Positions 1 through 34,355 of a stretch of 34,355 nucleotides of DNA are shown piece by piece; the first letter of the stretch is position 1, and every line of letters starts with the position of its first letter. This DNA is from a virus: UHGV virus genome UHGV-2160239; one strand, 5' to 3'. Under the pieces are notes generated by a model. That model was not told the DNA's origin. It made no database searches and saw only the letters and a list, made by a program, of their open reading frames with translations. A program made the translations under genes and the position numbers.

Positions 1-1023
1 TTATGTGGATGAAATGTGGATGCCTCCTTTTAACGGATTAAGTGAAATTGCATCCTGGAGGAAATCAGGAGCGAGGTGCGCATAGGTCATAGTTTGCTGG
101 ATCGTGGCGTGCCCCATAATTCGCTGGAGCGTAAGTATATTTCCTCCATTAATCATAAAGTGAGCAGCAAAGGTATGGCGTAGAACATGTACAGCCTGTC
201 CTTTTGGTAGGTCTGGTTTAACACTGCGAAGCACCTTGCGATATTCCTCATAATTGACGTCAAACAAAAGGCCGGATTTCTTTGTTTTGATCTCACTAAC
301 AACTTCATCAGAGACAGGAATAATTCGAACTTTTCCGTTTTTAGTTTTGTTAAACGTCACGCGATTATTGATGATATGTTCCGCGCGCAGATTTTTCGCT
401 TCTCCCCATCTCGCCCCAGTACTGAGACAAAGTAGCGTAATTCGCCGAGCATCACCGCTTACTGCATCCAGCAATTTGGCGATTTCTTCCGTAGTGAGGT
501 ACGTCATTTCGGGTGATTTTCGTTTCAAAGAGGGGAGGGCGCGGAGTGGATTTTCTCCGTGAAATTCTCCGGCATTTGCCAGGAGTGTAAACATTCCTCC
601 GAGATCCGACTCATCACGCCGAACAGTAGACTCTTTTACTCCCAAGGATAAACGGGAGCTTCGATAAGCTGCCATGAAACGAGCATTAATCTGGCTAACC
701 CTTGGATCATTCATTTCTTTGATGATTTTTTTCAATCTGGTTAGAACGCCGTTAGCATATGGCTTATTGCGTCCACCCAATTCCCACCATAACGGAAGCA
801 GATCTGAGAGATGACGTTGCTCTGTTGGCTTTTCAAGCCATTCCTTATCGTGCATGTGGCTGAGAACATAGCGCTCAAAGGCCACTGCATCTGCCTTTTT
901 CTTAAAAATCCGCTGAATCCGACGTCCACTTCGGCCACGCGGTCTAACATCCACTTTATACCGTCCACCATCGAGTGCTTTAATTGCCATTGGCAAGCCC
1001 TCCGGTGAAACGAGGAAAGACAT
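1..1023 (-). CDS. int: Tyrosine recombinase / phage integrase (P2 Int-like)
   Basis: 340 aa ORF; C-terminal catalytic region with HVLRHTFA and TMTYAHL (R-H-R-Y tyrosine recombinase signature); position next to the C repressor as in P2. Stop codon is at window positions 1-3. Confidence 0.9.
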   Translation of the reverse strand: MSFLVSPEGLPMAIKALDGGRYKVDVRPRGRSGRRIQRIFKKKADAVAFERYVLSHMHDKEWLEKPTEQRHLSDLLPLWWELGGRNKPYANGVLTRLKKIIKEMNDPRVSQINARFMAAYRSSRLSLGVKESTVRRDESDLGGMFTLLANAGEFHGENPLRALPSLKRKSPEMTYLTTEEIAKLLDAVSGDARRITLLCLSTGARWGEAKNLRAEHIINNRVTFNKTKNGKVRIIPVSDEVVSEIKTKKSGLLFDVNYEEYRKVLRSVKPDLPKGQAVHVLRHTFAAHFMINGGNILTLQRIMGHATIQQTMTYAHLAPDFLQDAISLNPLKGGIHISST

Positions 1024-1453: not shown

Positions 1454-1780
1454 ATGAATGAAGAACTATTGAGGGCATTGTTTAAGATCCCAGACCCCAT
1501 CACCGTCGATGAATTTGCTCGCCGCACGGGCAAGACCGAATCAGCCGTAAGAAAGTTGGTGGAACGTCGACTTATCCCTCTGGCCACTGAGCGTGAAGTT
1601 TTAGGCGAGGAAGGAAGTTCACGCCGCCTTCTCATCCTATGGAACGAGTGGCTCGAAATGGTCTATGACGCAACGAAACAGCTTCCTCCTGAGCGTAAAG
1701 ATTGGCGCAACCACTGGCTTAATAAAGCCAAGAAGCTGGCGGAAGATTTGGGATTAGGCTTCCTTAATTTTGCTGCATGA
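1454..1780 (+). CDS. cox: Cox-like excisionase / early transcriptional regulator
   Basis: 108 aa first gene of the rightward early operon; GGGAG RBS 10 nt upstream; pattern EFARRTGKTESAVRKLVERRLIP resembles the Cox winged-helix family. Confidence 0.65.
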   Translation: MNEELLRALFKIPDPITVDEFARRTGKTESAVRKLVERRLIPLATEREVLGEEGSSRRLLILWNEWLEMVYDATKQLPPERKDWRNHWLNKAKKLAEDLGLGFLNFAA

Positions 1781-3749: not shown

Positions 3750-3949
3750 ACAAAAAGACCTGGTTTCGCGCATACATGTGGGCGCTGGTATGCGTCCTCG
3801 TCTCTCTCATTCTGTATGCAGGACTACTCCCCCGAATGATTTCATCAGACAGCTCCTTCCTGGTATTGCTGGGCATTTTCATTGCCATGCTGTACCCGGC
3901 AGGCGTTGTTCGCCTTTTCAGTAAGTACATCAAGGAAATCAAACAATGA
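3746..3949 (+). CDS. Small two-helix membrane protein (possible NfeD/YqiJ-like partner of the SPFH protein)
   Basis: 67 aa with two hydrophobic stretches (WALVCVLVSLILYAGLL and FLVLLGIFIAMLYPAGVV); ATGA overlap with the downstream SPFH gene. Confidence 0.55.
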   Translation: MNKKTWFRAYMWALVCVLVSLILYAGLLPRMISSDSSFLVLLGIFIAMLYPAGVVRLFSKYIKEIKQ

Positions 3950-4776
3950 AGAAACTCAAACTCTTTCAGATTATCCCGCTTTTTGCGGCCATCCTGTTGG
4001 TTGGTTGCGATCGCGTTGAGCCAGGTAATGTGGGCATCAAAGTCAACAAGCTGGGCGACGACAAAGGCGTCGGCGAAGTGGTTGGCGTTGGCCGCTACTG
4101 GACTGGCTGGAATACCGAGGTTTACATCTTCCCGACCTTCAAACAAATGAAGACCTACGATGAGCCGTTCAGTTTCCAGATGAGCGATGGCACAACCATC
4201 GGCTATCACATCGGCGTGGCCTACAAGGTTGATCCATCCAAAGTGACCACAGTGTTTCAGACCTACCGCAAAGGCGTGGATGACATTACCGACACTGACC
4301 TGCGCCAGAAGATCGCCGATGCACTCAACCGACTGGCCAGCAAAATGACCACCGATAAGTTTATCGACGGTGGCAAGTCTGAACTGCTGGATTCAGCACT
4401 TAAAGACATTCAGGCAGAAATGACACCTATCGGCATTCAGGTAATGAGCCTCTCTTATGTCGGTAAACCGGAATACCCACCAACCGTTATCGACAGCATT
4501 AATGCCAAAGTCACGGCAAACCAGAAAACTCTGCAACGCGAACAGGAAGTCAAGCAGCGCGAAGCAGAAGCCAACATGCTACGCGCAGAAGCAGCCGGAC
4601 AGGCTGATGCCATTCGCACAAAAGCCCAGGCTGAAGCCGACGCCATTCGTTTGCGCGGTGAAGCTCTGCGCCAGAACCCCGGCGTTATGGAGCTGGAAGC
4701 TATCAACAAATGGAACGGCACGCTGCCGCAATACATGACCAGTAATACCGCTGTTCCGTTTGTTCCGGTGAAGTAA
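3946..4776 (+). CDS. SPFH / band-7 (stomatin-prohibitin-flotillin-like) lipoprotein
   Basis: 276 aa; signal peptide with lipobox LLVGC; central SPFH-like region followed by an Ala/Glu/Arg-rich coiled coil (QREQEVKQREAEANMLRAEAAGQADAIRTKAQAEADAIRLRGEALRQ) typical of band-7 proteins. Confidence 0.8.
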   Translation: MKKLKLFQIIPLFAAILLVGCDRVEPGNVGIKVNKLGDDKGVGEVVGVGRYWTGWNTEVYIFPTFKQMKTYDEPFSFQMSDGTTIGYHIGVAYKVDPSKVTTVFQTYRKGVDDITDTDLRQKIADALNRLASKMTTDKFIDGGKSELLDSALKDIQAEMTPIGIQVMSLSYVGKPEYPPTVIDSINAKVTANQKTLQREQEVKQREAEANMLRAEAAGQADAIRTKAQAEADAIRLRGEALRQNPGVMELEAINKWNGTLPQYMTSNTAVPFVPVK

Positions 4777-4807: not shown

Positions 4808-5143
4808 AGCAGCATCAGGATTTTTTAGTATGCCGTTCTCACAAAAAAACCGCTTGCCATGCCGCAATCAGTCAGGTTACATTTCCGCTGCACCTCATAA
4901 AACGGGTGCCGGGTTTCGCAGCCTGCTGACTAGCAAAGCGCACAACCGCGCCAGCGGTTTTTTTGTGCGTACTGTATTGCCACGTCTTTTTCGCACACGA
5001 ATTATGGCGGGGCGTACGGGGCCGACTTCGGTCGGGCCGGGTTCTTTGCTAGCCGGTACTGCGAACCTCGTACGTCTCGCCACCCACAGTTTCGCAGCTC
5101 TGGATGGTGAGTTTTCAAAACTTACTAGCAAAGAGGCCACACC

Positions 5144-5374
5144 ATGGCAAACCGCAAACAGCACCGCGCTATCGCGGAGCGTCGTCACATCCAGACTGAA
5201 ATCAACCGCAGACTTTCCCGCGCATCACGCGTCGCGCAAATCATGCACATCAATATGCTGCATGAGCGCAGCCACGCACTATCAAACATTTATTCCGCCT
5301 CTGTTTTCAGCTATCTGGCGGATGATCTGCGCGAGCTTCAGCAGCTCATCCAGCAGCAAAACCAACTCCATTAA
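5144..5374 (+). CDS. Hypothetical small protein upstream of A
   Basis: 76 aa; AGAGG RBS; basic, helical-looking sequence, possibly a regulator. Confidence 0.5.
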   Translation: MANRKQHRAIAERRHIQTEINRRLSRASRVAQIMHINMLHERSHALSNIYSASVFSYLADDLRELQQLIQQQNQLH

Positions 5375-5446
5375 TTCCTGTTCCGGGCCTTTCCTGCACC
5401 TTGCGGCGGGAGGCCTTCGCACATCTGTACTTTGACGGAGTTTGTG

Positions 5447-7753
5447 ATGAGTACCTCTCACTCATACCCGTGGAACGCGCCGGACTGGGACGTGGCAACA
5501 GCAAACGGCATCACGCCCGACGCTGCCGTCTCTGCCGTGCATGAAACCACCGAAACCACAAGCAACACAGCATTCGCCTACCTGACACCGGACGGCGAAC
5601 GCCGCGTGCTGGATATGAGCGACCTCCGCGCAGTCTGCCGCGAGTATCAGAAGGGGCTTCTGGAGCGCGAACGACAGGAAATCATCCGCCGCCGGAAACA
5701 TGAGGAGTGGCTGCGTCGCCGTCTGGCCACGCTGCCTTCATTCATCCGCACCACCTTCTCCAGAAAACTGGAAAAGATGGACAGAGAAACGCCGGAACGC
5801 GCTTACCACTGGCTTTGCGGAACGTTCGAGAAGCACGTTCTGCGCCGCGTGGATGTGGTAAATGAACAGTACGAACCGCAGACACCGTGGCCCGACATGC
5901 TGCTCCCTTTGCGCGACGCGTTTCACCGCCTGCCGTGGGCGGACAGGAAGAAAATGCGCCACCTCGCCTGGTTGCTGGCCTCCGTCATGACATCGGAATT
6001 CACACGCCGGTTTGATGACCAGTACGCGCTCACGGGCGATCTGGAATCATCCGTGGTGGACGCATACGGCTATATTGCAAGCCGCGCGACTTTTCTGAAC
6101 ATCTTCATCCCCGGTTGGCGGCATTATCAGGGTGAAAGTCTGACACCGGATGATGCACTCCGCTGTGTTTCCCGCCTCCAGTCGCAGAAGTGGTGGCTGG
6201 GAAAAATCCGGCGAATCCACGAATGCTGGCGCGAACATCTGTTGATTGCCACGGGGCACGTGAGCAAATACGCAGGCGCAAAATGCTCTGACGAGTGTCT
6301 CGCATCGTGGCGTGCGCAACGCAAGGCAAACCTTGAATGGATGTCGGCAATGGACCTGGAAAACGAGGATACGGGCGAGCGTATGCCGCTGCTCGACAAG
6401 GTGCTGGGCAGCGTTGCTAACCCGAAAATAGCCCGTCATGAACTCACCGTTCGTGCGGCTGGCTTTCAGGCGACCGCTGACGAGATGGGTTACGTCGCCA
6501 TGTTTTACACACTGACCGCCCCTTCCTCGTATCACTCAATGCGCGTCAAAGACGGAAAACGGAACGACAAATACAACGGGGCCAGTCCGCGTGCCACGCA
6601 GAAATATCTCTGTAAGGTCTGGAGCCGCGTTCGCGCCGCGTGGCGGCGTAAAGGCATCCGCACCTTTGGCATTCGCACCGCTGAGCCTCACCACGACGGA
6701 ACGCCGCACTGGCATCTCGTTCTCTGGTTCCACCCGGACGACACCGAAGAGGCCACACGCATATTCCGGGAGTATGCGCTGGCGGAAGACGGTGGTGAGT
6801 CGGGTGCTGACAAGTACCGCTTTGAAGCGGTCGAAGAGGACAAAACGCGCGGCCGCGCAATTGGCTACATCGTCAAATACATCTCCAAAAACATCGATGG
6901 CTACGGGCTGGATGGCGAAGCCGACCGCGAAACAGGAAAATCCCTGAAAGACGAAGCGCGACGCGTCAGGGCATGGGCTTCGCGCTGGCGTATTCGTCAG
7001 TTCCAGCAGATTGGGGGCGCACCTGTTTCGGTCTGGCGTGAACTGCGCCGACTGGGGGGGTGTGAACTGGTACTGCATCCACAGATTGAAGGCATTCGCG
7101 CCGCAGCAGATGAGGGGGACTGGCAGGCGTACACCATGCTTCAGGGTGGGCCTTTTGTGGAGCGTTGCGAACTGGTGGTTCGTCTCGCCTATGACAGACA
7201 GGAGGATGCCAACGCCTACGGCGACACAGTTTGCAAAATTGCAGGAGTCCGCGACATGACAATGCCGCCGGAAGACATGATTTTCACTCGCCTTAACACT
7301 TACAAAATTGTGCCAAAAGTCAGCAAAAACAATGACAAAGAACAAACAGAAGGCCGCGACGCGGCCCCTTGGAGTTCTGTCAATAACTGTACGCACAGAC
7401 GAAGCAGTGGTGAGCATGAAGGCGAGCATTCCGACAAAACACCACCGGAATCACCGCCGGAAACGGTGAAAAAAGCGCCGGAATCACCATCACAGACAGA
7501 AGAAGATAGCGCCAGTCTTAACCAAATCATCGGGCCGCTGGAGCGACTCGGCTTTACCGTGTCCCGCCACCTCGCAAAATCCGTTCTTGCGGGTGGCGTA
7601 GTGCGCTCAACCGACGGTGTTGTCGCCCGCTGGGACACATCATGTAACAGACTGGTGGTCACGCGCGCGAACGCGTCGCCGTCGCTGGTTGTTTCGAAGG
7701 TTTCCGAATACACCAGACGACTGAAATGGGCGCTGGCACGGAGGTCGCTGTGA
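5447..7753 (+). CDS. A: Replication initiation endonuclease (P2 gpA-like, HUH rolling-circle)
   Basis: About 768 aa from ATG 5447 (GGAG 6 nt upstream); HUH-type metal motif in TPHWHLVLWF and catalytic tyrosine motif GYIVKYISKNIDGY; size and position match P2 gene A. Confidence 0.9.
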   Translation: MSTSHSYPWNAPDWDVATANGITPDAAVSAVHETTETTSNTAFAYLTPDGERRVLDMSDLRAVCREYQKGLLERERQEIIRRRKHEEWLRRRLATLPSFIRTTFSRKLEKMDRETPERAYHWLCGTFEKHVLRRVDVVNEQYEPQTPWPDMLLPLRDAFHRLPWADRKKMRHLAWLLASVMTSEFTRRFDDQYALTGDLESSVVDAYGYIASRATFLNIFIPGWRHYQGESLTPDDALRCVSRLQSQKWWLGKIRRIHECWREHLLIATGHVSKYAGAKCSDECLASWRAQRKANLEWMSAMDLENEDTGERMPLLDKVLGSVANPKIARHELTVRAAGFQATADEMGYVAMFYTLTAPSSYHSMRVKDGKRNDKYNGASPRATQKYLCKVWSRVRAAWRRKGIRTFGIRTAEPHHDGTPHWHLVLWFHPDDTEEATRIFREYALAEDGGESGADKYRFEAVEEDKTRGRAIGYIVKYISKNIDGYGLDGEADRETGKSLKDEARRVRAWASRWRIRQFQQIGGAPVSVWRELRRLGGCELVLHPQIEGIRAAADEGDWQAYTMLQGGPFVERCELVVRLAYDRQEDANAYGDTVCKIAGVRDMTMPPEDMIFTRLNTYKIVPKVSKNNDKEQTEGRDAAPWSSVNNCTHRRSSGEHEGEHSDKTPPESPPETVKKAPESPSQTEEDSASLNQIIGPLERLGFTVSRHLAKSVLAGGVVRSTDGVVARWDTSCNRLVVTRANASPSLVVSKVSEYTRRLKWALARRSL

Positions 7754-31255: not shown

Positions 31256-31412
31256 AGCTTCAGCCCCTTGTATCCGTTAAATGATTCGGCAACAATCATC
31301 ACCCACCACGCGCGTAATCTCACCCCTGCGCCGTTCTCCCGACCCAGCGACAACAAAAAGCAGTAACCCCCTCCGCACGCACATGCGACCATGCCGCACA
31401 GGGAGGGAACAG

Positions 31413-32522
31413 ATGACCGACACCACCATGCAATTGCTCAGTCAGGGCACAGACCCCGTGAAAATGCCGGATTTTGATATTCTTGCGGAGGGTAAAACGC
31501 TGTCAGGCGTGGCAGAGCGCCTGATGAGCCTGTCACTGACCGACAACCGGGGATTTGAGGCGGACCAGCTCACCATCACGCTGGATGATGCGGATGGTCA
31601 GTTGCAGCTACCGCCACGGGGCGCGCGCCTGACGGTTCTCATTGGCTGGAAAGGAGAACCGCTGACAGAAAAAGGCACTTACATTGTTGATGAAATCGCT
31701 CACGAAGGACCGCCGGACAGGCTGACAGTTTCAGCCAGAAGCGCAGATTTTCGGGATGAATTTAACGTTAAACGTGAGGTGTCCTGGCATGATGTGACCG
31801 TTGAGCGTGTGGTATCCGCCATCGCTCATCGGTATGGTCTGAAACCGCAAATCAGCGAAATGCTGATGGATATTGAAATCGACCACGCCGACCAGACCGA
31901 AGAAAGCGACATGTCCTTCCTTACGCGCATGGCGGAAATGCTGGGCGCAATCACTACGGTAAAAAGCGGTAATCTGTTATTCATCATGCCAGGCGGTGGC
32001 GTGAACGCGCAGGGCCAGCCGTTGCCCTCGTTCGCCATCACACGCAGCAGCGGCGATCGCCATCAGTTCCGCATTGCTGACCGAGAGGCGTATACGGGGG
32101 TACGCGCTTACTGGCTTGATCTTAATTACGGGAAAAAGAAAAAAGTCAGCGTGAAACGCCGCAAACCGACAAAACCCAAAAAGGAGAAAAGCAGCAGCCG
32201 TGAAGGTGATTATATGGAAGGCGCGGAAGGCAATGTGTTTGTGTTACGCAAGACTTATCAGAACGAGCAGGCAGCAAGACGCGCAGCGGCGGCAAAGTGG
32301 CAGCAGCTACAACGCGGAGCCGCATCATTCTCCATCACGCTGGCGCGTGGACGCGCAGAACTCTATCCCGAAATGCATGGCACGGTAGCAGGCTTTAAAA
32401 GCGATATTGATAATCAGGACTGGATTATTGCAAAAGCCGAGCACACCATTGATAACAGCGGCTTTACCACGCAGCTTGAGCTTGAAGCAAAAATCCCGGA
32501 ATGGATAGCAGAAACAGAGTGA
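31413..32522 (+). CDS. D: Tail / late control protein D (P2 gpD-like)
   Basis: 369 aa from ATG 31413 (GGGAGGG RBS); size and position next to ogr as P2 D; on the strand opposite to FI-U here. Confidence 0.8.
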   Translation: MTDTTMQLLSQGTDPVKMPDFDILAEGKTLSGVAERLMSLSLTDNRGFEADQLTITLDDADGQLQLPPRGARLTVLIGWKGEPLTEKGTYIVDEIAHEGPPDRLTVSARSADFRDEFNVKREVSWHDVTVERVVSAIAHRYGLKPQISEMLMDIEIDHADQTEESDMSFLTRMAEMLGAITTVKSGNLLFIMPGGGVNAQGQPLPSFAITRSSGDRHQFRIADREAYTGVRAYWLDLNYGKKKKVSVKRRKPTKPKKEKSSSREGDYMEGAEGNVFVLRKTYQNEQAARRAAAAKWQQLQRGAASFSITLARGRAELYPEMHGTVAGFKSDIDNQDWIIAKAEHTIDNSGFTTQLELEAKIPEWIAETE

Positions 32523-32564: not shown

Positions 32565-32825
32565 ATGTTCCGTTGTCCGCTTTGTGGCGCATCTGCCCGT
32601 ATCCGCACCAGTCGTTCGGAAAATGATTCAAACACCGTACGGAAAAAATATTACCAGTGTAACAACCTGGAATGCGGCATAAGTTTCTCAACACTGGAAG
32701 CTTTCCATAAATTCACATCGAAACACGCCCCCGGCGTTCACTCTTCAGAAGGTATCCCGTGGAATGAGCTGCCAGCTTCGCACAGGGGAAACAATCAGAT
32801 GAGCTTGCCTTTACCTCAGAATTAA
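32565..32825 (+). CDS. ogr: Late gene transcriptional activator, Ogr/Delta zinc-finger family
   Basis: 86 aa; MFRCPLCGASARIRTSR ... YYQCNNLECGISF gives the Cys4 zinc finger of Ogr; strong GGGAGG RBS. Confidence 0.85.
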   Translation: MFRCPLCGASARIRTSRSENDSNTVRKKYYQCNNLECGISFSTLEAFHKFTSKHAPGVHSSEGIPWNELPASHRGNNQMSLPLPQN

Positions 32826-32913
32826 CAGGCAGAATTGCCGGAGTAACAAAAAAGCGATAGATTACGCGCGGGTGCCTTTCGGCTGATGGTCGGAGGGAGT
32901 ACCCGAAGGCCAG

Positions 32914-33099
32914 ATGTGGAAAGGCCCCGAGTCAACTTTAATGTTAACCCGAGGCCCTAACCATCTACCCTTAGCAAGTGATAGGTTAGCGCCTCCCCGA
33001 AAAAGGAGCAAGCGCTATGTCGCAAAAATCGCTTACGGTCATCACGTTCTGCGTGACGGCAATCCTCATCATCTGGATGCTGCACGGTTCGCTGTGTGA
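32914..33099 (+). CDS. mok: mok-like overlapping reading frame of the hok locus
   Basis: 61-aa ORF in a different frame overlapping most of the hok coding sequence, as in hok/mok/sok loci; may only be a translational-coupling frame. Confidence 0.35.
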   Translation: MWKGPESTLMLTRGPNHLPLASDRLAPPRKRSKRYVAKIAYGHHVLRDGNPHHLDAARFAV

Positions 33100-33157
33100 A
33101 ATACGGATGAGCTTCTGGGGAGCGGAGTTTGCGGCGTTCTTACAGTGTAAGCAGTAA
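33017..33157 (+). CDS. hok: Hok/Gef-family type I toxin (46 aa)
   Basis: MSQKSLTVITFCVTAILIIWMLHGSLCEIRMSFWGAEFAAFLQCKQ: N-terminal TM helix plus the SLCEIR and E.AAF Hok/Gef signature; AGGAG RBS; 5-prime GGTGCCTTTCG and 3-prime CGAAACGGCACC are complementary, like hok mRNA tac/fbi elements. Confidence 0.7.
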   Translation: MSQKSLTVITFCVTAILIIWMLHGSLCEIRMSFWGAEFAAFLQCKQ

Positions 33158-33243
33158 GGAAACCGCGACGGGGGAGTAATCCCCCGTCAATCGGTTGCTA
33201 AGGTCGGTCGAAACGGCACCCTATCTCACAGACATGAACAACA

Positions 33244-33276
33244 AACCCGCAGCGTAAAAACTGCGGGTTTTCTTTT
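33244..33276 (+). terminator. Rho-independent terminator downstream of hok
   Basis: ACCCGCAG-CGTAAAAA-CTGCGGGT stem-loop followed by TTTTCTTTTT. Confidence 0.6.
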
Positions 33277-33406
33277 TGCTACCCTCACAAATGAGGGCAC
33301 CATACATAAGCAATAGACATAACAGATCGATGCAATAAATCCGATCGATAAAAACGATCGATTTGTTATCATATCGGCAGCAGTAACCACACAAGAGGTG
33401 CCGCAA

Positions 33407-33604
33407 ATGACGCAAAATGTACGATGCAAAAATTGCAACAAACTACTTGCCCGCGCCTCATTTCACTACATTGAAATAAAATGTCCGCGCTGCAAAACAC
33501 TTAACCAGATAACGAGAGCCATTGAGCACCCCACACGCATGAGGAGTTATGACCGTGGGGATCGCAACCCAGCATCAACCAGTACATACACCGGAACACA
33601 CTAA
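33407..33604 (+). CDS. com: Com-like zinc-finger translational regulator (Mu Com family)
   Basis: 65 aa; RCKNCNKLLARASFHYIEIKCPRCKTLNQ is closely similar to Mu Com (CKNCNKLL ... IEIRCPRCK); 3-prime end overlaps the start of the methyltransferase gene as com overlaps mom in Mu. Confidence 0.75.
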   Translation: MTQNVRCKNCNKLLARASFHYIEIKCPRCKTLNQITRAIEHPTRMRSYDRGDRNPASTSTYTGTH

Positions 33605-34355
33605 GATTTACCAGATTGACAATGCCACGCTCTGTTGTGGAAATGCACTGGAAATATTGCCGCTGATTGAGCCAGAAAGCATTGATGCCTTAATCACTGA
33701 CCCGCCTTACAGTTCGGGGGCGACACACAAGGCCGGACGCACCAACCAGGGCAGTCATGCAAAATATCTGAACGGCGAGAACCTTCACCGCTTTGATGGG
33801 TTCGCGGGTGAGAACATGGACGCCCGTTCGTGGGCTTACTGGACACAATTATGGATGGCACAGGCACTACGTGCAGTCAGGTCGGGCGGTTATGCCCTGG
33901 TATTTACTGACTGGCGACAACTGCCTGCTTTAACCGATGCGTTTCAGGCCAGCGGTTTTACATGGCGTGGAATCATTGCGTGGAACAAAGGAAAGGGGTC
34001 ACGAACACCCCATACGGGGTATTTCCGGCATCAGTGCGAATACATTGTCTGGGGCAGCAAAGGCCATTTAGGTAAATCGCCTTCGGGGCCGTTCGACGGC
34101 TGCATGACGTTCCCGGTTATCCCGTCAAAGAAAATGCACCCGACCGGAAAACCAGAAGAACTAATGGCGGAGCTGGTCAGGACTGCGAATAGTGGCGGAA
34201 CAGTCCTTGATCCTTTTATGGGGTCGGGAACAACGGGTGTGGCTGCACTGAAAGCAGGGCGAAAATTTATTGGTATAGAAACCAGTGATCATTATTTTGA
34301 GGTAGCAGCGCAGCGGCTTCGGGGGAGTATTACCACAACCATTTCGACGACATAA
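33549..34355 (+). CDS. DNA methyltransferase, beta-class N6-adenine (or N4-cytosine) type, no restriction partner in window
   Basis: 268 aa; motif IV DPPY near the N-terminus and AdoMet motif I FMGSGTTGVAA near the C-terminus (beta-class order, CcrM/M.RsrI-like); stop is at the window end. Start at 33549 or GTG 33555. Confidence 0.85.
   Translation: MTVGIATQHQPVHTPEHTKIYQIDNATLCCGNALEILPLIEPESIDALITDPPYSSGATHKAGRTNQGSHAKYLNGENLHRFDGFAGENMDARSWAYWTQLWMAQALRAVRSGGYALVFTDWRQLPALTDAFQASGFTWRGIIAWNKGKGSRTPHTGYFRHQCEYIVWGSKGHLGKSPSGPFDGCMTFPVIPSKKMHPTGKPEELMAELVRTANSGGTVLDPFMGSGTTGVAALKAGRKFIGIETSDHYFEVAAQRLRGSITTTISTT

What the first reader, a model, noticed from the sequence alone, without database searches (positions are those of the whole stretch)
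33320..34355. Mu com/mom-like arrangement driving a DNA methyltransferase, with three clustered GATC sites upstream
A Com-like zinc-finger gene overlaps the start of a beta-class methyltransferase (DPPY ... FMGSGTT) by about 56 nt, the architecture Mu uses for Com-dependent translation of mom. About 50-80 bp upstream, three GATCGAT elements are spaced 13-18 bp apart (33325, 33343, 33356), reminiscent of the Dam-sensitive sites at the Mu mom promoter, suggesting methylation-state control. The enzyme has no restriction partner in the window and may protect phage DNA.
Basis: partly seen in the sequence, partly recalled or inferred. Interest (0 to 1): 0.55.

Follow-up and report, generated by a model that had tools for sequence, protein, structure and literature searches.

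The report
Mu-type com control cassette driving methyltransferase
The last two genes of this P2-like prophage are a copy of phage Mu's com/mom control cassette, with the Dam-sensitive OxyR-type operator, the Com zinc-finger activator and the start-codon-hiding RNA hairpin all present. Here the cassette drives an orphan beta-class DNA methyltransferase instead of Mom, and the operator sits directly on the promoter.

Summary
GATCGAT occurs at 33325, 33343 and 33356 (spacing 18 and 13). com is 33407-33604. A beta-class methyltransferase (DPPY, then FMGSGTT) runs 33549-34355 and overlaps com by 56 nt, or 50 nt from the GTG at 33555.

- The 51-bp operator aligns without gaps to Mu's mom upstream region (36/51 identical, same 18/13 spacing, same ATAG-N8-GATC) and resembles the E. 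coli agn43 OxyR/Dam operator.
- Com is 60% identical to Mu Com.
- The published Com RNA motif CC-N3-GAG and a CCCCAC/GUGGGG hairpin that buries the SD, ATG and GTG lie where Mu has them.

The methyltransferase is the last prophage gene. Host raiA follows, and there is no restriction partner.

Differences from Mu: the cargo; a P2/P88-like phage; and no C-activator site or Pmom. A conserved extended -10 (TGnTATCAT) instead lies 11 nt after the last GATC, so the operator covers -35 and the spacer.

Related com cassettes carry Mom, C5, D12 or beta methyltransferases, so the cassette is portable.

Nothing here is tested experimentally, and the target sequence is unknown. Verdict: a new variant of a known system, possibly phase-variable.

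The parts
33243..33275 (+). Intrinsic terminator ending the upstream hok-family transcript. It marks the 5' boundary of the com unit.
   Evidence: 10-bp stem, 8-nt loop and a T run. It implies that com and the methyltransferase need their own promoter.
33313..33363 (.). OxyR-type, Dam-sensitive operator: ATAG (33313-16), N8, GATC I (33325-28), N14, GATC II (33343-46), N9, GATC III (33356-59). GATC II and III lie in the palindrome CGATCG-N7-CGATCG.
   Evidence: Gap-free 36/51 identity to Mu L002 648-698 with the same 18/13 spacing. ATAG-N8-GATC and the 13-nt pair are shared with E. coli agn43, which has spacing 19/13. The triad is intact in 30 of 34 related beta-methyltransferase loci, including diverged L105 and L116 where the flanks have changed but the GATCs have not. 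Binding by OxyR itself is not tested.
33345..33372 (+). Putative sigma-70 promoter: -35 TCGATA (33345-50), 16-nt spacer, extended -10 TG (33364-65) plus TATCAT (33367-72). The predicted start is near 33379.
   Evidence: It is the only consensus match in 32800-33700, where 1.1 are expected by chance. TATCAT is invariant, while the n of TGn varies T/C/G among relatives. Group C cassettes have TATACT at the same 11-nt offset from the last GATC. This is inferred and not mapped.
33407..33604 (+). com: a 65-aa CxxC...CxxC zinc-ribbon translational activator.
   Evidence: Pfam PF10122 1e-11 and PHROG 'gpCom control of modification' 3e-17. It is 60% identical to Mu Com over 42 aa.
33519..33526 (+). 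Candidate Com binding motif CCAUUGAG (CC-N3-GAG), directly 5' of the hairpin.
   Evidence: It matches the SELEX and footprint motif 5'-CC(N)2-3GAG-3' of PMC6483171. GCC-N3-GAGC is invariant in 12 distinct cassettes. It is also present in distant Com plus beta-methyltransferase loci L028, L012 and L008.
33529..33560 (+). Hairpin equivalent to Mu's translation-inhibition structure (TIS). Outer stem CCCCAC/GUGGGG, inner stem CAUGA/UUAUG. The SD GGAG (33543-46) forms the loop. ATG 33549 and GTG 33555 are both paired.
   Evidence: Present in both the MFE and the centroid fold; the 81-nt segment folds at -17.3 kcal/mol with z = -2.0. The outer stem is 100% paired in 12 distinct cassettes, with one compensatory pair (C-G in most, U-A in Mu). 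The loop varies from 11 to 20 nt.
33549..34355 (+). Orphan beta-class (DPPY) DNA methyltransferase, 268 aa (266 aa if it starts at GTG 33555). It is the last gene of the prophage.
   Evidence: PF01555 4e-32. All catalytic and AdoMet motifs are invariant across 22 homologues. Host raiA follows on the source contig. L116 has no ATG in the loop, and the most abundant homologue cluster is 266 aa; both favour the GTG start.

Best explanation
This is a portable two-layer expression-control cassette of the Mu com/mom type. It sits at the right end of a P2/P88-like prophage and controls an orphan beta-class, probably N6-adenine, DNA methyltransferase.

Layer 1, transcription (inferred). Reduced OxyR binds the operator at 33313-33363 when its three GATCs are unmethylated or hemimethylated. 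Because the operator covers the -35 and spacer of an extended -10 promoter, bound OxyR blocks RNA polymerase. Full Dam methylation of the GATCs excludes OxyR and allows transcription of com and the methyltransferase.

Layer 2, translation (inferred from homology and folding). On the bicistronic mRNA, the methyltransferase SD, ATG and GTG are locked in the hairpin at 33529-33560. Com is translated first. It binds the adjacent CC-N3-GAG element and opens the hairpin, so the methyltransferase is made only after Com has accumulated.

Purpose (inferred). The enzyme would methylate phage DNA, and incidentally host DNA, so that progeny escape restriction in new hosts. This is the role Mom and the FluMu-type methyltransferases play. 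The tight control limits a potentially harmful or promiscuous enzyme.

Unlike Mu, no phage late activator (C or Ogr) site is present. Timing would therefore rest on the Dam/OxyR balance alone.
For: Operator:
- Gap-free homology to the Mu mom upstream region that holds its only three GATCs, with identical spacing.
- Similarity to the agn43 operator.
- The 13-nt GATC pair also characterises the OxyR half-sites of P22 gtr (PMC2909390).
- The GATCs persist in diverged relatives whose flanks have changed.

Com and the RNA elements:
- Com family membership.
- The published Com motif sits next to a conserved hairpin.
- The GTG in the hairpin stem opens the cargo ORF in every related cassette, and all products begin VG.

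Portability: cassettes with 52-71% Com identity carry Mom (PF25680), a C5 methylase (PF00145), a D12 methylase (PF02086) or this beta class.

Orphan status.

Precedent: com followed by non-Mom methyltransferases in FluMu, Pnm1 and Hia5, shown to block many restriction enzymes (PMC3299994).
Against: - No experiment bears on this locus.
- The promoter is a 9/12 consensus match, and one such match is expected by chance in the region scanned.
- The short Com-binding hairpin is weaker than in Mu: it has an A.A mismatch, or a CGA/UUG alternative.
- Hairpin covariation rests on a single pair, probably one evolutionary event. The 5' arm also encodes the conserved Com residues HPT, so protein constraint could explain part of the conservation.
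- Natural variants lack one GATC (L089) or the whole triad (L113-115), so the operator is dispensable for carrying the module.
- The target sequence, and whether the enzyme is toxic, are unknown.
- The enzyme is not close to the non-specific M.EcoGII.
Confidence: 0.7

Rival explanations
1. Phase-variable lysogenic conversion. The agn43-like operator lies on an activator-independent promoter. In that case the prophage would switch heritably between OFF (OxyR bound, GATCs unmethylated) and ON (GATCs methylated) within a lysogen population. This would give mixed methylomes, rather than acting only as a lytic-cycle anti-restriction function.
For: The operator geometry matches agn43 (ATAG-N8-GATC, spacing 19/13 against 18/13). 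There is no Mu C site or Pmom and no TGT-N12-ACA Ogr-type element upstream of com. The extended -10 is conserved. P22 gtr is a phage-borne precedent, and the same paper states that whether mom phase-varies is not known (PMC2909390).
Against: No expression or methylation data exist for this locus. Com-dependent translation adds a second barrier that may keep the enzyme off in lysogens. Related prophage methyltransferases are usually silent in lysogens (PMC5778455; PMC3299994).
Confidence: 0.25
2. The GATC cluster acts without OxyR. Either SeqA binds the hemimethylated sites after replication, or methylation within the -35 and spacer changes RNA polymerase binding directly, coupling expression to replication.
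For: GATC II overlaps the proposed -35 and GATC III lies in the spacer. GATC I and III are 31 bp apart, about three helical turns, which by general knowledge suits SeqA.
Against: Conservation extends beyond the GATCs to ATAG-N8 and the ATCG-N7-CGAT arms, which resemble OxyR half-sites. The homologous Mu region is reported to be the OxyR target (Bolker and Kahmann 1989, as cited in PMC3378877).
Confidence: 0.1
3. Com is a DNA-binding transcription factor, as the RefSeq product name suggests ('Com family DNA-binding transcriptional regulator'). The overlap would then be ordinary translational coupling.
For: The RefSeq product name on E. coli homologues.
Against: Mu-family Com is shown to bind RNA at CC(N)2-3GAG next to the TIS and to activate translation (PMC6483171). 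That motif and the hairpin are conserved here.
Confidence: 0.05
4. The module is a decaying relic. The GATC cluster and hairpin would be inherited remnants with no current role, and the methyltransferase would be inactive.
For: Operator-deleted and single-site variants exist.
Against: The ORFs are intact and all catalytic motifs are invariant. The module is carried by 171 of 5,426 complete E. coli genomes and by a free phage, Chuche. The GATCs are retained across diverged flanks.
Confidence: 0.03

Closest known systems
Phage Mu com-mom operon (Pmom region with three GATCs, OxyR/Dam control, Com, TIS)
   Same: Homologous operator (36/51 identical, 18/13 spacing). Homologous Com (60%). CC-N3-GAG motif next to a hairpin holding the GUG start. 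50-nt com/cargo overlap counted from the GTG. Position at the end of the phage genome.
   Different: The cargo is a beta-class methyltransferase, not Mom. About 27 bp holding the C-activator site and Pmom (ACCACA, 19 nt, TAAGAT) are absent, so the operator abuts a putative extended -10 promoter. The hairpin loop is 20 nt rather than 11 nt and also contains an ATG. The phage is P2/P88-like, not transposable.
com plus non-specific adenine methyltransferases of Mu-like prophages (Hin1523 of FluMu, Nme1821 of Pnm1, Hia5; B3 ORF47/48) - PMC3299994
   Same: A Com homologue is followed by a DNA methyltransferase in the mom position. The proposed role is anti-restriction under Com control.
   Different: In that paper those enzymes are aligned with the Dam and DpnM structures (D12/alpha type), whereas this one is N6_N4/beta class. 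Those are in Mu-like prophages of Haemophilus and Neisseria. That paper describes no OxyR/GATC operator (it has zero occurrences of 'OxyR').
E. coli agn43 (flu) Dam/OxyR phase-variation operator
   Same: ATAG-N8-GATC, then two CGATCG sites 13 nt apart with an A/T spacer and a GATCGATAAG-like end. Three GATCs in about 36 bp.
   Different: The first spacing is 19 rather than 18. In K-12 the annotated isrC RNA, upstream of flu, begins at the first GATC, whereas here the operator lies over the -35 and spacer.
P22 gtr OxyR/Dam switch (PMC2909390)
   Same: Phage-borne. GATC pairs 13 nt apart inside OxyR half-sites. One OxyR site overlaps the promoter.
   Different: gtr has four GATCs in two pairs and three half-sites, with alternative activating and repressing occupancy. 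Its cargo is O-antigen glucosylation.
M.EcoGII / M.EcoGI (non-specific beta-class prophage methyltransferases, PMC5778455)
   Same: Beta-class, prophage-borne and orphan. Silent in lysogens.
   Different: Only the generic N- and C-terminal motifs align (29% over 94 aa). The central region is unrelated, and the sizes are 352 against 268 aa. The paper's text does not mention com.
Escherichia phage Chuche PP925824 (annotated 'gpCom control of modification' plus 'DNA methyltransferase')
   Same: 94% identical DNA with the same order: ogr, hok, com, methyltransferase, then attP and int.
   Different: It carries automatic annotation only. No paper describing the operator, hairpin or function was found.

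Membership tests
Com zinc-ribbon family (Pfam PF10122) | Profile match above the curated threshold, with four Cys as CxxC...CxxC | tested here: met
   44.5 bits against a cutoff of 22.9. The Cys residues lie at C7, C10, C27 and C30 (RCKNC...KCPRC). 60% identical to Mu Com.
Com zinc-ribbon family (Pfam PF10122) | Binds its cognate mRNA and activates translation | not testable with these tools
   Only the target motif can be seen in the sequence.
Mu-type com/cargo translational control cassette | The cargo ORF starts inside the 3' end of com, out of frame | tested here: met
   56-nt overlap from the ATG or 50 nt from the GTG. Mu has 50 nt.
Mu-type com/cargo translational control cassette | Com recognition motif CC(N)2-3GAG in a short hairpin immediately 5' of the TIS | tested here: met
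   CCAUUGAG lies at 33519-33526, 2 nt before the stem. GCC-N3-GAGC is invariant in 12 cassettes. The small hairpin around it is weak here.
Mu-type com/cargo translational control cassette | A stem-loop (TIS) sequesters the cargo start codon | tested here: met
   Predicted in both the MFE and centroid folds. The stem is 100% paired across cassettes with one compensatory pair. This is a prediction only.
Mu-type com/cargo translational control cassette | The cargo is Mom (PF25680) | tested here: not met
   The cargo is PF01555 N6_N4_Mtase. Mom is found behind related com genes in other loci.
Dam-sensitive OxyR operator (mom / agn43 type) | Three GATCs within about 36 bp with 18-19 and 13 nt spacing, in ATAG/CGAT-type half-site context | tested here: met
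Dam-sensitive OxyR operator (mom / agn43 type) | OxyR binds unmethylated but not methylated DNA | not testable with these tools
   This needs EMSA or footprinting.
Mu Pmom (C-dependent late promoter) | A C-protein binding site plus a weak -35 ACCACA, 19-nt T-rich spacer and -10 TAAGAT between the operator and com | tested here: not met
   The alignment shows this segment is missing. The window has 51 nt from the last GATC to the com ATG, against 78 nt in Mu. The hexamer assignment in Mu is from memory of the Hattman and Nagaraja literature. PMC3378877 supports the description of a suboptimal spacer and T stretch.
P2 late (Ogr-dependent) promoter | TGT-N12-ACA dyad about 55 nt upstream of the start | tested here: not met
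   None lies between 33200 and 33400. The only nearby match (33482-33499) is inside com, and matches are no more frequent than chance. The consensus is recalled from established P2 literature.
Beta-class amino DNA methyltransferase (PF01555) | Motif IV (DPPY) lies N-terminal to motif I (FxGxG), with a profile match | tested here: met
Beta-class amino DNA methyltransferase (PF01555) | Defined target sequence and modified base | not testable with these tools
   No characterised close homologue was found. The best named hits say only 'site-specific DNA-methyltransferase'.
Type II restriction-modification system | An adjacent restriction endonuclease gene | tested here: not met
   Host raiA follows on the opposite strand. 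In phage Chuche, attP and int follow. This is the only DPPY-type methyltransferase motif in the window.
M.EcoGII-type non-specific adenine methyltransferases | Full-length similarity, including the central target-recognition region | tested here: not met
   Only the terminal motifs align, at 29% over 94 aa.

The most novel reading that the evidence does not exclude
The cassette is an agn43-style Dam/OxyR epigenetic switch controlling a second DNA methyltransferase. Lysogens, about 3% of complete E. coli genomes, would split into heritable ON and OFF subpopulations with different methylomes. This would be a repeat-independent 'phasevarion' in which one methylation system (Dam) sets the state of another. 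The enzyme could lock its own operator ON if it also methylates the GATC adenines.
Probability: 0.2. Interest if true: 0.75.

Novelty: new variant of a known kind. Interest (0 to 1): 0.45.

Why it matters
The Mu com/mom operon is the textbook case of layered control of a dangerous DNA-modification gene. It has been studied almost only in Mu, where the need for the C activator masks what Dam and OxyR do on their own.

This prophage shows the same operator, Com and RNA switch on a promoter that appears to need no phage activator. It is in front of a different enzyme class and in a different phage family. Relatives plug Mom, C5, D12 or beta-class methyltransferases into the same GTG. The cassette therefore looks like a general, exchangeable control unit for phage DNA-modification genes.

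It also offers a simple natural system, with naturally operator-deleted variants as controls. That system could test whether mom-type Dam/OxyR control gives phase variation, a question stated as open in PMC2909390. It could also reveal the target of a methyltransferase found in about 3% of complete E. coli genomes.

Tried and rejected
- Restriction partner or a longer R-M operon cut by the window end: rejected. The source contig and an E. coli lysogen show host genes directly after the stop.
- A second, Dam-like phage methyltransferase in the early region that might methylate the operator: rejected. ORF 3946-4776 is an SPFH protein, and there is no other DPPY-type motif in the window.
- M.EcoGII-type identity: rejected.
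- Ogr- or C-dependent promoter: no supporting element found.
- The shared AACCACAC in Mu and the window as a homologous -35: rejected. In the window it lies in the com leader next to the SD, and the alignment does not pair the two copies.
- GATC clustering statistics alone: weak, about 0.23 by random placement, so the case rests on homology.
- Rfam: no family matches the 33200-34355 region.
It was useful only for showing three distant Com plus beta-methyltransferase pairs.
- Literature searches for a description of a P2-like com-methyltransferase or a Dam/OxyR-controlled methyltransferase found none.
- The primary OxyR/mom and agn43 papers (PMC401183, PMC147061, PMC135096) are not held.
- Target specificity could not be inferred from PDB or family matches.

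Full report
CONTEXT

The window is a complete P2/P88-like prophage.
- Integrase 1-1023 (-), a CI-like HTH protein, Cox, and replication protein gpA at 5432-7753.
- Late genes follow, ending with sheath and tube, gpD at 31281-32522, and Ogr at 32565-32825.
- After Ogr come a Hok-family toxin gene (33017-33157, PF01848) with a strong intrinsic terminator (33243-33275), then com and the methyltransferase.
- The exact methyltransferase protein is encoded on CP056159.1. There, host raiA, bamD and rluD follow the stop codon.
- An E. coli lysogen (NZ_AP042695) has the same junction.
- In the free phage Chuche (94% identical) the next features are attP and int.
- The methyltransferase is therefore the last prophage gene, and it is an orphan.

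THE OBSERVATION

It is correct in every particular. GATCGAT occurs at 33325, 33343 and 33356. com is 33407-33604. The beta-class methyltransferase is 33549-34355, with DPPY at residues 51-54 and FMGSGTT at 223-229. The overlap is 56 nt.

A cluster of three GATCs is not statistically striking by itself, at about 0.23 by random placement of the window's 83 sites. However, the 7-mer GATCGAT occurs nowhere else in the window.

THE OPERATOR

I fetched the Mu com-mom region. The only three GATCs upstream of Mu com are spaced 18 and 13 nt apart, exactly as in the window.

The 51 bp from ATAG to GATCGATT align without gaps at 36/51 identity. The best unrelated 51-mer on either strand of the window scores 27.

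The E. coli K-12 agn43 regulatory region has the same ATAG-N8-GATC. It is followed by two CGATCG sites 13 nt apart with an A/T spacer (spacing 19/13). In P22 gtr the GATC pairs inside the OxyR half-sites are also 13 nt apart (PMC2909390).

By established knowledge, Mu mom transcription is governed by OxyR binding to the unmethylated or hemimethylated three-GATC region (Bolker and Kahmann 1989; Hattman and Sun 1997), as cited in PMC3378877 and PMC10742451. I could not read the primary papers.

The operator assignment is therefore an inference from homology. OxyR binding was not tested.

CONSERVATION OF THE OPERATOR

A scan of viral contigs with Com returned 80 loci.
- Of 34 loci carrying the beta-methyltransferase, 30 keep all three GATCs at -82/-64/-51, or one base further upstream in L116 (-83/-65/-52). 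These include L105 and L116, whose flanks have diverged.
- One locus has lost the middle site.
- Three loci (L113-115) have a clean deletion of the whole triad.
- Mu-like loci with Mom or C5-methylase cargo keep the 13-nt CGATCG pair, or the 18-nt pair, in front of com.

THE PROMOTER

Mu has about 27 bp more between the operator and com. That segment holds the C site and the weak Pmom. PMC3378877 describes Pmom as C-dependent, with poor hexamers, suboptimal spacing and a T stretch. The window lacks this segment.

The only sigma-70-like match in 32800-33700 is TCGATA, a 16-nt spacer, then TG-n-TATCAT at 33345-33372.

Among relatives TATCAT is invariant, while the n of TGn is T, C or G. Group C cassettes have TATACT at the same 11-nt offset from the last GATC. 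This pattern fits an extended -10 promoter, and it places the operator over -35 and the spacer.

No TGT-N12-ACA element precedes com. The promoter is not mapped.

COM AND THE RNA SWITCH

Com matches PF10122 and the PHROG 'gpCom control of modification', and it is 60% identical to Mu Com.

PMC6483171 shows that Com recognises 5'-CC(N)2-3GAG-3' in a short hairpin next to the translation-inhibition structure. The stem of that structure contains the mom GUG start.
- Mu reads GCCUGCGAGCAUCCCAC...GUGGGA.
- The window reads GCCAUUGAGCACCCCAC...GUGGGG.

Folding places the methyltransferase SD (GGAG) in a tetraloop. The ATG at 33549 lies in an inner stem and the GTG at 33555 in the outer stem. The fold is -17.3 kcal/mol with z = -2.0, and the hairpin is present in the centroid.

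In 12 distinct cassettes the six outer pairs are always paired. One pair covaries (C-G against U-A). The loop varies from 11 to 20 nt.

Caveats: the covariation is probably a single event, and the 5' arm also encodes conserved Com residues.

L116 has no ATG in the loop. The most abundant homologue cluster is 266 aa. Every cargo ORF opens at this GTG with V-G. Counted from the GTG, the com/cargo overlap is 50 nt in both Mu and the window.

Three distant Com plus beta-methyltransferase pairs (Solidesulfovibrio, a spirochaete and a proteobacterial MAG) also carry GCC(G/A)CGAGCCCC inside com.

A PORTABLE CASSETTE

Behind related com genes lie four different cargo types:
- Mom (PF25680);
- a C5 cytosine methylase (PF00145);
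- a D12 adenine methylase (PF02086);
- this beta-class enzyme (PF01555).

Some hok-com-methyltransferase loci lack gpD and Ogr upstream, so the module also moves between phage backbones.

THE ENZYME

It belongs to a very large family, with 7,332 hits at E <= 1e-10, and none carries a characterised name. All catalytic and AdoMet motifs are invariant.

The closest solved relatives are CcrM and HpyAVI-type enzymes, at E of about 1e-19 to 1e-20.

It shares only the generic motifs with the M.EcoGII-like enzyme of phage 1720a-02.

Its target and any toxicity are unknown. DPPY suggests N6-adenine by general knowledge.

WHAT IS KNOWN

Com followed by a methyltransferase instead of mom is published for FluMu, Pnm1, Hia5 and B3 (PMC3299994).

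RefSeq and phage annotation pipelines already label these two genes. The RefSeq name 'DNA-binding transcriptional regulator' is at odds with the RNA-binding evidence.

I found no paper describing this P2-like module, its OxyR-type operator, or a Dam/OxyR-controlled methyltransferase.

The module is present at 80% coverage or more in 171 of 5,426 complete E. coli genomes.

VERDICT

It is a new variant of a known system, not a new kind.

The most interesting open point is that the operator sits on what appears to be an activator-independent promoter. That is the architecture expected to give agn43-like phase variation.

Noticed in passing
L200 about 1535-1665 (- strand); also L203 and L265: Lambdoid contigs (nin region) carry a full ATAG-N8-GATC-N14-GATC-N9-GATC triad with 18/13 spacing. 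CATAAT follows 11 nt after the last GATC, and an intrinsic terminator follows about 55 nt later. The operator and -10 geometry is the same as here, but it apparently drives a short RNA rather than com.
   Followed up: partly
L113, L114, L115 (about 2440-2480): Natural variants of the same hok-com-methyltransferase module have the whole GATC triad cleanly deleted (ATAACAAATCAATTTGTTATCAT) but keep the extended -10. L089 has lost only the middle GATC. They are useful natural controls.
   Followed up: partly
window 33017-33157 and 32830-33275: A Hok-family (MokW-like) type I toxin gene with a strong terminator lies immediately upstream of com. The surrounding roughly 370 bp is about 84% identical to a segment of many Stx-converting lambdoid phages. 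Rfam reports no match there.
   Followed up: partly
window 4890-4964 and 5000-5087 (+): Rfam matches to isrK (65.5 bits) and C4 antisense RNA (82.8 bits) lie at the start of, and inside, the Ash-like ORF 4830-5435, just before gpA. This looks like a P1/P7-type antisense immunity element in a P2-like early region.
   Followed up: no
L012 515-1468: In a proteobacterial MAG, the Com zinc ribbon and the beta-methyltransferase lie in one continuous open frame. This is either a fusion or an assembly frameshift.
   Followed up: no
L083, L089, L091, L105, L116: These hok-com-methyltransferase modules (Com up to 100%, methyltransferase up to 99% identical to the window) have no gpD or Ogr within 2.5 kb upstream. 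The three-gene module is therefore found on other backbones.
   Followed up: no
L165 5300-7011: On the source chromosome, about 1.7 kb without called genes separates raiA from bamD. In E. coli OkiPb01715 that gap is about 270 bp.
   Followed up: no
window 33482-33499: A TGT-N12-ACA dyad, the form recalled for Ogr-dependent P2 late promoters, lies inside com. It is created by the CPRCKT codons, and its frequency in the window is no higher than chance.
   Followed up: yes
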